From Pecten maximus (taxonomy: Eukaryota): a DNA stretch of 64,000 nucleotides. The position numbers were made by a program. The DNA lies in the NCBI RefSeq assembly GCF_902652985.1, contig NC_047033.1, forward strand, positions 27,342,001 to 27,406,000, read 5' to 3'. This document shows positions 24,001 to 27,000 of this stretch, piece after piece; position 1 is the first letter of the stretch, and each line of letters starts with the position of its first letter.

Positions 24001-27000
24001 CCCGTAGTAACTGGAACAACAGGAGCTGTGGATAAAAAATATAGGTCACTGTGACAAGATAGCTGCAGACTGAATCAAATTAAGGTCACTGTGACAAGAT
24101 AGCTGTGGATACAGAATATAGGTCACTGTGACAAGATAGCTGTGAACTGAATCAAATTTAGGTCACTGTGACATGATAGCTGGACTGAATCAATATAGGT
24201 CACTGTGACATGATAGCTGTGAACTGAATCAAATTTAGGTCACTGTGACATGATAGCTGGACTGAATCAATATAGGTCACTGTGACATGATAGCTGTGAA
24301 CTGAATCAAATATAGGTCACTGTGACATGATAGCTGTGAACTGAATCAAATATAGGTCACTGTGACATGATAGCTGCAGACTGAATCAAATTTAGGTCAC
24401 TGTGACAAGATAGCTGATGAAACTGAATCAAATACAGGTCACTGTGACAAGACAGATGTAGACTGAATCAAATATAGGTCACTGTGACATGATAGCTGTG
24501 GATACAGAATACAGGTCACTGAGACAAGATAGCTGTGAACTGAATCAAATTAAGGTCACTGTGACATGGTAGCTGGACTGAATCAAATATAGGTCACTGT
24601 GACATGAAAAGTGTGGAAACAGAATCAAATATAGGTCACTGTGACAAGATAGCTGTGGATACTCTATCAAATATAGGTCAATGTGACAAAATCTAGCATG
24701 TTAGAAATATCTGTGTCTGACATTTGATTGTTTTAATCTGGACACTATCTGTTTATATCAAAATACAACTGACACTTTTGATGTGTAATTCCTGAATCTT
24801 AATGTCCAACAAGTTATTGGTATCTGTGACTATGGATGCTTAACCAATTCCCAGATAACGACCTTTAAATTATGTACATTAAGGAACAGTGTTTAATACA
24901 TGAATCTTACCTTCACATTAAAAGCATTGAGACCACCTGGGTGTTTCTCCAGGTACTGACTAAGGTCTGTATGCTGTAAAAATAAAACAAAACAGTCTTA
25001 TTATCAAAATTTGGACTAAACATTTCACATGAATATAGAAAGAGGATGAACAATTTACTACAATGAAACTGCACACACGCACTGACAAACAAATATATTT
25101 ATTAGAGTATCCAAAGGAATAAAACTATATCTTTTAAACTCATGAATTCCTTTCCATAACAATTCCAAATTCTACCAAACAAAGCAGTTGGATCAGTGTT
25201 ATTTTGACTCTTCTCACCCAGCCTCATATAATGCAACACCATCATCAGAAGCAAACATTTTGATGACCAAGCTGATACTGTACAAGGAAGGAGGCTATTA
25301 CTGACATGACATTAATTACTGTAAATATCAGAAAATATTAATTATCCATATCAAGTGTATATATATAATAATGAGTGACATATTTCAACAATTATACCGA
25401 TATCAAATACTGGAGTATGTCACATTTACATTTGCACTGAATTCAACTTACTGTGATAGGAATATAACTTGTTTGCACACTGGCATGGCTGCAAAAACAT
25501 TGTTTCAAACTTCCAAAGCCCAGATTCTTATGATTAAACTTACAACATACTCAAACACAAATACAATTATACTTACAACATACTCCAACACAAATAAAAT
25601 CACACTTACAACATACTCCAACACAAATACAATTATACTTACAACATACTCAAACACAAATACAATTATACTTACAACATACTCAAACACAAATACAATT
25701 ATACTTACAACATACTCAAACACAAATACAATTATACTTACAACATACTCAAACACAAATACAATTATACTTACAACATACTCAAACACAAATACAATTA
25801 TACTTACAACATACTCAAACACAAATACAATTATACTTACAACATACTCAAACACAAATACAATTATACTTACAACATACTCAAACACAAAAGTTAGCGT
25901 TTCCTTGGTGTGTATGATGTCATGAAGTGTGACAATGTTAGCGTGTTTTAGACCCTTCAGAAGTGAGGCTGAAAAATAAACAGAGAAATTATTAATCTCT
26001 GGAAATTTAACTATTTATCTTGGTCACAGGAATATAGGATTATTACATAACAATAAACACAGGTAGACAATTGTAACCTATATAGGTAAATCAATCTCAC
26101 TAGTTGCATCAGTTATAGGTTTTTAAAACCAAATCGAACGGAGGCAGCCATTTTGTTACGTCATCATCATTTCAAGACCAAAGGTCCTTGTCAATATTAT
26201 GATGTCACAACAGACTTCTGACTGAGATAGCCAATCAAAACACTCCAGGGTATATTACACTCCGGGGTATATTACAGTCCAGGGTATATTACACTCTGGG
26301 GTATATTACACTCCGGGGTATATTACACTCTGGGGTATATTACACTCCAGGGTATATTACACTCCAGGGTATATTACACTCCAGGGTATATTACACTCCA
26401 GGGTATATTACACTTCGGGGTATATTACACTCCGGGGTATATTACACTCCGGGGTATATTACACTCCAGGGTATATTACACTCCGGGGTATATTACACTC
26501 TGGGGTATATTACAGTCCGGAGTATATTACACTCCAGGGTATATTACACTCCAGGGTATATTACACTCCGGAGTATATTACACTCCGGGGTATATTACAG
26601 TCCGGGGTATATTACCGTCCGGGGTATATTACACTCCGGGGTATATTACACTCTGGGGTATATTACACTCCGGGGTATATTACAATCCGGGGTATATTAC
26701 ACTCCAGGGTATATTATACTCCAGGGTATATTACAGACCGGGGTATATTACACTCCGGGGTATATTACACTCCGGGGTATATTACACTCCAGGGTATATT
26801 ACAGACCGGGGTATATTACACTCCGGGGTATATTACACTCCGGGGTATATTACACTCCAGGGTATATTACAATCCGGGGTATATTACACTCCAGGGTATA
26901 TTACACTCCAGGGTATATTACAGACCGGGGTATATTACACTCCAGGGTATATTACACTCCGGGGTATATTACACTCCGGGGTATATTACAGTCCGGGGTA

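What the first reader, a model, noticed from the sequence alone, without database searches (positions are those of the whole stretch)
25505..25890. Eleven in-frame, stop-free donors repeating the kinase gatekeeper/hinge codons
The 33-nt unit is TTTGTGTTTGAGTATGTT|GTAAGTATAATTGTA. Every donor is phase 0 and there is no stop across the array. Distal donor use would give NMD-invisible mRNAs with ([11 protein letters not shown])n inserted at the F-E-Y-V hinge. Such proteins would probably be kinase-impaired but retain the PFTAIRE cyclin-binding helix (inference).
Basis: partly seen in the sequence, partly recalled or inferred. Interest (0 to 1): 0.7.

Follow-up and report, generated by a model that had tools for sequence, protein, structure and literature searches.

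The report
Splice-donor minisatellite in scallop CDK14 gene
A 33-base stretch covering the end of a kinase exon and its splice signal has been copied eleven times in a row in a scallop gene; this kind of repeat is already known in human genes, where the first copy is the one mainly used.

Summary
On the minus strand, 25891..25529 holds 11 head-to-tail 33-nt units. Each unit is the last 18 nt of an exon (FVFEYV) plus GTAAGT and 9 more intron bases. Units 1-8 are identical. All 11 donors are phase 0, and the frame stays open to a TGA at 25507..25505. The gene is the 17-exon CDK14-like gene of the king scallop Pecten maximus: the named protein P0004 matches every exon at 100% and carries the canonical join FVFEYV|HTDL, so it uses the first donor. 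None of the 360 proteins listed by three searches carries the insert.

The array is not special in this setting. 38% of the window is tandem repeat, and four other arrays in the same gene also straddle splice junctions, three of them with out-of-frame periods. The in-frame property is therefore about what chance gives.

The kind is known: human F7, IFI 6-16, CBS, LMNB2, PDGF and ABCA7 have boundary minisatellites, with the first donor used only or mainly (PMC1557585, PMC5954066).

Use of distal donors is untested, because no RNA data were reachable. I rate it a new member of a known kind, of low to moderate interest.

The parts
17125..62471 (-). CDK14-like (PFTAIRE) kinase gene with 17 coding exons, from the ATG at 62471 to the TAA at 17127..17125
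   Evidence: P0004 (ncbi: cyclin-dependent kinase 14-like [Pecten maximus], 520 aa) matches codon for codon in 17 blocks. Splice sites were read.
27708..27787 (-). Exon 7, encoding LTNQIVALKEIRLQAEEGAPFTAIRE (the PFTAIRE motif)
25874..25968 (-). Exon 8 (95 nt), encoding (A)[31 protein letters not shown]. It ends in phase 0 after the residue aligned to CDK2 position 83.
   Evidence: PDB phmmer hit to CDK16 3mtl E=3.3e-11, and CDK2 53-82. Pfam Pkinase profile positions 51-80, E=1.8e-4, below the curated cut-off. Boundaries.
25529..25891 (-). 33-nt minisatellite of 11 units. Unit 1 spans the exon 8 / intron 8 boundary (18 nt of exon plus 15 nt of intron).
25868..25873 (-). First donor, GTT|GTAAGTAT. 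This is the one used by the annotated protein.
   Evidence: P0004 reads FVFEYV|HTDL. Donor table.
25538..25840 (-). Ten reiterated pseudo-donors (GTAAGT starting at 25840, 25807, 25774, 25741, 25708, 25675, 25642, 25609, 25576 and 25543), all in phase 0
25505..25507 (-). First in-frame stop (TGA) after the array
24911..24973 (-). Exon 9 (HTDLSQYLEKHPGGLNAFNVK), the acceptor that any of the 11 donors would join in frame

Best explanation
This is a young, probably near-neutral minisatellite. It arose by tandem duplication of a 33-bp piece that happens to contain the exon 8 / intron 8 junction of the scallop CDK14-like gene. The genome around it makes such arrays at a very high rate. The spliceosome uses the most upstream donor, the one attached to the real exon, so the other ten copies are ordinary intron sequence and the protein is the normal kinase. 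At most, the second or third donor is used at a low level, giving minor +11 or +22 aa forms. Shown here: the anatomy, the gene, the canonical annotated protein and the repeat-rich context. Inferred: which donor is used, neutrality and the young age.
For: (1) All 17 exons match the named Pecten maximus protein P0004 at 100%, and that protein joins FVFEYV directly to HTDL. (2) 57 merged tandem arrays cover 24,279 of 64,000 bases, or 38%. A scallop genome paper reports 21.7% tandem repeats genome-wide (PMC10225492, passages). (3) Four more arrays in the same gene carry a splice junction: exon 2 donor, 32 copies at 38 nt; exon 5 acceptor, 44 copies at 30 nt; exon 6 donor, 2 copies at 65 nt; exon 13 acceptor, 2 copies at 77 nt. 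Three of these periods would shift the frame, yet the annotated protein is intact, which fits the exon-adjacent site being the one used. (4) Units 1-8 are identical over 264 nt, which points to a recent origin or homogenisation. (5) Among the 360 proteins listed by the three searches, the exon-end motif is followed by VS (a read-through of GTNAGY) in 210 occurrences, and none has a second FVFEYV unit nearby. The five unnamed read-throughs that I read (P0129, P0142, P0126, P0121, P0145) also continue into unique sequence. [quoted passage not shown] (7) The array RNA has no unusual fold (z = -1.26).
Against: No transcript data were reachable, so donor use is inferred from an annotation that is partly guided by homology. 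The pseudo-donors are identical to the real one and pair well with U1 (8 contiguous matches). In IFI 6-16 and CBS the two nearest pseudo-sites are used constitutively (PMC1557585 introduction), and one ABCA7 VNTR unit is retained in about 2% of transcripts (PMC5954066). From memory, in-vitro work with duplicated strong donors favoured the downstream copy. Junction-straddling arrays are somewhat more frequent than my null predicts: 5 observed against 1.1-1.7 expected, P = 0.011-0.088 depending on the threshold, and 4 observed at P = 0.045 without the ascertained array. Pure neutrality is therefore not proven.
Confidence: 0.78

Rival explanations
1. Functional isoform ladder. Distal donors are used regularly, making stable in-frame mRNAs whose proteins carry ([11 protein letters not shown])n at the hinge. 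These proteins would bind cyclin but not phosphorylate, acting as regulators or dominant negatives.
For: There are 11 phase-0 donors with no stop, and they are identical to the real donor. Second and third donors are used in IFI 6-16, CBS and ABCA7 (PMC1557585 introduction; PMC5954066). The insert ends in a copy of FVFEYV, so the sequence joined to HTDL is unchanged (direct reading).
Against: The annotated protein is canonical, and 0 of 360 listed proteins carries the insert. Arrays at the exon 2 and exon 6 donors of the same gene are out of frame (38 and 65 nt), so being in frame is roughly a 1-in-3 chance event. The unit peptide is very hydrophobic (GRAVY 2.35) and sits at the ATP-binding hinge. 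Units 1-8 are identical, leaving no time for selection to show. None of the read-throughs from other taxa has the array.
Confidence: 0.08
2. Mildly harmful allele. The array lowers correct splicing of exon 8 or 9 (exon skipping, intron retention, lower expression) on the sequenced haplotype and varies in copy number in the population.
For: ABCA7 VNTR length correlates with skipping of the next exon and with lower expression (PMC5954066). In F7 constructs, exon 7 skipping rises as the usable donor moves downstream (PMC1557585). P. maximus is highly heterozygous at 1.71% (PMC7191990), so a private allele in the reference is plausible. The identical units suggest recent growth.
Against: No expression data are available. 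Five such arrays coexist in one conserved, intact gene, which argues that they are tolerated.
Confidence: 0.1
3. Assembly artefact: the copy number, or the array itself, was produced by long-read assembly or polishing.
For: No result points this way. Tandem arrays are a known weak spot of assemblies (general knowledge).
Against: The array is only 363 bp, far below long-read length. The distal units carry their own variants, and the array joins unique sequence cleanly on both sides. 94% of reads map back to the published assembly (PMC7191990).
Confidence: 0.04

Closest known systems
Human F7 intron 7 37-bp VNTR (Borensztajn et al. 2006, PMC1557585)
   Same: The first monomer spans the exon-intron boundary. 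The authentic donor is followed by several identical pseudo-donors at a similar spacing (37 vs 33 nt) and a similar copy number (5-9 vs 11).
   Different: The F7 unit holds 4 nt of exon where this one holds 18 nt. The F7 unit is out of frame for most copies. F7 polymorphism and first-donor-only use were measured; here neither was.
Human interferon-inducible 6-16 (IFI6) and CBS intron 13 minisatellites, as summarised in the PMC1557585 introduction
   Same: Boundary minisatellites with reiterated donors. The nearest two pseudo-sites are used as well as the authentic one, giving small insertions. This is the model for possible minor +11 or +22 aa scallop forms.
   Different: The unit sizes and genes differ. 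I did not read the primary papers (Turri 1995 and Kraus 1998 are recalled names). Use in the scallop is unknown.
Human ABCA7 intron 18 25-bp VNTR (De Roeck et al. 2018, PMC5954066)
   Same: The VNTR starts at the exon's donor GT. One-unit retention is seen as a minor isoform, and array length affects splicing of the neighbouring exon.
   Different: The ABCA7 unit carries no exon bases and shifts the frame. It is GC-rich and can reach kilobases. A disease association has been shown.
CDK14/PFTK1 (PFTAIRE) kinases of the TAIRE CDK subfamily; the nearest solved structure is CDK16
   Same: The gene itself: PFTAIRE motif, HRDLKPQN and DFG exons, and 100% identity to the P. maximus CDK14-like protein.
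   Different: Nothing unusual in the coding sequence. The oddity lies only in the introns.

Membership tests
Minisatellite whose first monomer spans an exon-intron boundary (F7 / IFI 6-16 / CBS type) | Head-to-tail tandem array with a unit of about 10-100 bp | tested here: met
   Period 33, 10.9 copies, 97% matches; 11 units in register.
Minisatellite whose first monomer spans an exon-intron boundary (F7 / IFI 6-16 / CBS type) | The first unit contains the last exon bases and the authentic donor | tested here: met
   Unit 1 is 25891..25859. The exon ends at 25874 according to the codon match to P0004 and the GT at 25873.
Minisatellite whose first monomer spans an exon-intron boundary (F7 / IFI 6-16 / CBS type) | The donor sequence is reiterated unchanged in the intron | tested here: met
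   11 of 11 units carry GTT|GTAAGT. 9 of 11 (donors 1-8 and 10) are identical over -9..+12.
Minisatellite whose first monomer spans an exon-intron boundary (F7 / IFI 6-16 / CBS type) | Only the most upstream donor, or the first two or three, is used in mRNA | not testable with these tools
   No RNA data. The annotated protein is consistent with this, and no protein with the insert appears among the 360 listed.
Minisatellite whose first monomer spans an exon-intron boundary (F7 / IFI 6-16 / CBS type) | Copy-number polymorphism (VNTR) | not testable with these tools
CDK14-like / PFTAIRE cyclin-dependent kinase | PFTAIRE motif in the C-helix exon | tested here: met
   APFTAIRE is encoded within 27709..27786.
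CDK14-like / PFTAIRE cyclin-dependent kinase | Protein kinase catalytic core (HRDLKPQN, DFG, APE region) | tested here: met
   Exon-by-exon Pfam gives weak Pkinase matches for 6 of 11 exons tested, each below the whole-domain cut-off, as expected for fragments of 20-39 aa. The motifs were read.
CDK14-like / PFTAIRE cyclin-dependent kinase | Closest named relatives are CDK14 orthologues | tested here: met
   P0004 matches at 100% over 17 exons. The other top named hits are mollusc 'cyclin-dependent kinase 14-like' proteins. The best PDB hit is CDK16.

The most novel reading that the evidence does not exclude
Splice junctions in this scallop may be preferred birthplaces, or preferred survivors, of minisatellites. 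5 of 32 junctions in one gene are straddled against about 1.4 expected. That would imply a junction-linked mutational or selective process, for example arrays of U1 or 3'-site binding motifs being favoured in introns. On this reading the exon 8 array, and the equally in-frame 30-nt acceptor array before exon 5, would feed a ladder of in-frame CDK14 variants with hinge or N-terminal inserts.
Probability: 0.08. Interest if true: 0.7.

Novelty: new member of a known kind. Interest (0 to 1): 0.3.

Why it matters
By itself this is a curiosity: one more exon-boundary minisatellite, here in a conserved kinase gene of a repeat-rich mollusc. Its value is as a natural experiment. One gene offers 11 and 32 identical donors and 44 identical acceptors in tandem. 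RNA-seq of this locus would therefore test, outside mammals, whether 5' and 3' splice sites are picked by position (the exon-adjacent copy) rather than by strength. If distal donors were used, the products would escape nonsense-mediated decay and place a hydrophobic 11-aa block at the ATP-binding hinge. For annotators, the locus is a warning that open frames running through such arrays (169, 290 and 496 aa in this window) are not coding evidence.

Tried and rejected
This stays unchecked.
2. Three protein searches with the contiguous read-through (longer, near and shorter lengths) found no protein carrying the array. The one outlier, P0001 (80 bits), holds two copies of the whole exon 134 residues apart and is unrelated to this array. 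The full-length coverage of P0008 is a gapped alignment of a normal kinase to the hydrophobic repeat.
3. RNA structure that might hide the distal donors: the fold is not exceptional (z = -1.26; 14 of 100 shuffles fold as well).
4. The unit as a dispersed element: there is no copy outside the array at up to 7 mismatches.
5. Another gene or a transposon protein on either strand: all 20 ORFs of at least 130 aa are read-throughs of repeats or low-complexity sequence.
6. Strong enrichment of arrays at junctions: only suggestive (P = 0.011-0.088, thresholds chosen after seeing the data).
Exons were searched one by one.
9. Literature: five searches were answered. None of the listed titles or abstracts described boundary minisatellites in molluscs, but I ran no search aimed at exactly that.

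Full report
**What is there**

The feature lies on the minus strand. An exon runs from 25968 to 25874. It is preceded by ttttcag and encodes (A)[31 protein letters not shown]. Starting 18 nt before the exon's end, a 33-nt unit is repeated head to tail 11 times, from 25891 to 25529. The unit is TTTGTGTTTGAGTATGTT|GTAAGTATAATTGTA.

- TRF reports period 33, 10.9 copies and 97% matches.
- Units 1-8 are identical. Units 9, 10 and 11 differ at 4, 1 and 3 positions.
- Each unit carries GTT|GTAAGT. The 11 donors start at 25873, 25840 ... 25543, and all are in phase 0.
- The exon frame stays open through the whole array for 153 codons and stops at a TGA at 25507..25505.
- The unit occurs nowhere else in the window.

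The repeat proper ends at 25529, three units are variants, and 25873 is the first intron base.

**The gene and the organism**

The window is not human and holds no N. The named protein P0004 ('cyclin-dependent kinase 14-like [Pecten maximus]', 520 aa) came from a search with the contiguous read-through. It matches the window in 17 blocks at 100% identity, from the ATG at 62471 to the TAA at 17127..17125. GT-AG boundaries could be read for all 16 introns. The window is thus the king scallop CDK14-like gene, or that of a near-identical relative.

The exon in question is coding exon 8. Exon 7 (27787..27708) encodes the PFTAIRE motif, and exon 9 (24973..24911) starts with HTDL.

Exon 8 alone hits CDK16 structures (3mtl, E = 3.3e-11). 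It aligns to CDK2 residues 53-82, so F-E-Y-V falls on CDK2 positions 80-83.

**Which donor is used**

P0004 reads ...[15 protein letters not shown]..., which corresponds to the first donor. Three searches with the read-through peptide (longer, near and shorter proteins) listed 360 proteins.

- None contains VSIIV or a second FVFEYV-type unit close to the first.
- The only protein with two motif copies, P0001, duplicates the whole exon 134 residues apart and is unrelated to this array.
- In these proteins the exon-end motif is followed by VS in 210 occurrences, which is a read-through of a GTNAGY donor in ORF-called genomic pieces. It is followed by HT in 72, which is the spliced form.
- The five unnamed read-throughs that I read continue into unique sequence.

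So the intron position is widely shared, while the array was not seen outside this scallop sequence. No RNA data are reachable with these tools, so donor use remains inferred.

**Context changes the picture**

The window is extraordinarily rich in minisatellites: 57 merged arrays cover 38% of it. This fits the tandem-repeat richness reported for a scallop genome (21.7% in Amusium pleuronectes; PMC10225492, passages).

Four further arrays in the same gene also contain a splice junction:

| Junction | Array coordinates | Unit (nt) | Copies of a 24-nt junction probe |
|---|---|---|---|
| Exon 2 donor | 45370-46730 | 38 | 32 |
| Exon 5 acceptor | 31681-33213 | 30 | 44 |
| Exon 6 donor | 29509-29639 | 65 | 2 |
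| Exon 13 acceptor | 21996-22153 | 77 | 2 |

A sixth array (24024-24689) abuts the exon 10 acceptor. Three of the four periods in the table would shift the frame. The 30-nt acceptor array is, like the 33-nt one, in frame and open for 217 codons.

Two in-frame arrays out of five is what chance gives. A phase-0 GTAAGT reads as Val-Ser, so only three further intron codons had to lack a stop.

The gene is nevertheless intact and identical to the annotated protein. The simplest reading is that the exon-adjacent copy is the one used in each array, with the rest lying in the intron.

I asked whether five junction arrays are too many.

- I placed one founding unit per array at random in the gene, with arrays collapsed to one unit. 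Placements wholly inside an exon, or swallowing a whole exon, were rejected.
- This gives 1.4 expected straddlers, with P(5 or more) = 0.011.
- Across thresholds the result is P = 0.011-0.088. Without the array that drew attention, it is 4 observed at P = 0.045. Using the smallest TRF periods, it is P = 0.001.
- The thresholds were chosen after seeing the data and only one gene was examined. The excess of about 3x is suggestive and no more.

**Mechanism**

The closest experimental model is the human F7 gene (PMC1557585; I read the abstract, introduction, one results section and the discussion). Its 37-bp VNTR starts 4 nt before the end of exon 7. [quoted passage not shown] The authors call this oriented 5'-to-3' scanning. 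As the usable site moves downstream, exon skipping rises.

The same paper lists other cases:
- IFI 6-16: 25 pseudo-sites, with the two nearest also used.
- CBS intron 13: two pseudo-sites also used.
- LMNB2 and PDGF: only the authentic site is used.

In ABCA7, a 25-bp VNTR begins at the exon 18 donor. One-unit retention makes up about 2% of transcripts, and array length goes with skipping of exon 19 (PMC5954066, passages).

For the scallop, the first donor gives a 95-nt exon and a 900-nt intron. Donor 11 would give a 425-nt exon and a 570-nt intron. All donors share GTT|GTAAGTAT or close variants. The array RNA shows no special fold.

I therefore expect mainly first-donor use, possibly with minor +33 or +66 nt forms.

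**If a distal donor were used**

The insert ([11 protein letters not shown])n is very hydrophobic, with GRAVY 2.35. It sits immediately after the hinge valine.

Because each unit ends in FVFEYV, the residues joined to HTDL stay the same. The change can equally be described as 11 extra residues entering the N-lobe sheet before strand beta5. Loss of kinase activity is plausible but untested.

**Verdict**

- The feature is a new member of a known kind, the exon-boundary minisatellite. It is most likely young and near-neutral.
- Rivals: a functional isoform ladder (0.08), a mildly harmful splicing allele (0.10) and an assembly artefact (0.04).
- The most interesting thing here is the locus as a whole, where several splice junctions of one conserved gene are each reiterated up to 44 times.

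Noticed in passing
window 45370-46730 (-): A 38-nt array of about 36 units whose first unit spans the exon 2 / intron 2 boundary (...RISASFGRL, CTCT|GTAAGTAT). A 24-nt junction probe finds 32 copies. The period is not a multiple of 3, and in-frame reading hits a TAA in the third unit.
   Followed up: partly
window 31681-33213 (-): A 30-nt array that fills most of intron 4. Each unit carries the exon 5 acceptor plus the first 12 exon bases (tttgtttttgacag|ATAAGAACCATG). There are 44 junction copies, and the frame is open for 217 codons upstream of exon 5.
   Followed up: partly
window 29509-29639 (-): A 65-nt duplication (2.0 copies, 98% matches) spanning the exon 6 donor (AGTTG|GTAAGTGT). The second donor would shift the frame.
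   Followed up: partly
window 21996-22153 (-): A 77-nt duplication (2.1 copies) spanning the exon 13 acceptor. The upstream copy encodes GVGCIFTEII against the real GVGCIFTEMISG. Using it would shift the frame.
   Followed up: partly
window 24024-24689 (-): A 40-nt array (16.5 copies) that ends 2 nt inside exon 10. Its units carry CCACAG|CT-like acceptor motifs (3 probe copies at up to 20% mismatch).
   Followed up: partly
whole window 1-64000: 57 merged tandem arrays cover 38% of the sequence. The P. maximus genome paper lists only 0.99% 'simple repeats' and 16.7% unclassified repeats, so minisatellites may be hidden in the unclassified class, or this locus may be atypical.
   Followed up: partly
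window 26240-27654 and 27840-28800: Two long 17-nt arrays (83 and 56 copies) with different units flank the PFTAIRE exon 7 on either side. Each stops about 50-60 nt short of the exon.
   Followed up: no
window 23963 and 22742 (-): The donors of exons 10 and 12 are both G|GTCAGT, an unusual +3 C, in an otherwise GTAAGT/GTGAGT-rich gene.
   Followed up: no
window 47987-49461: A 155-nt unit repeated 8.9 times in intron 1 (it begins TCCAAGATGGCTGCC...). It looks like a satellite or a fragment of a mobile element, and its origin was not examined.
   Followed up: no
protein P0001 (unnamed metaclust record): A 320-aa protein that contains the homologous exon twice, 134 residues apart. The second copy reads into VV. 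It is probably a mis-assembled or duplicated gene model in another animal.
   Followed up: partly
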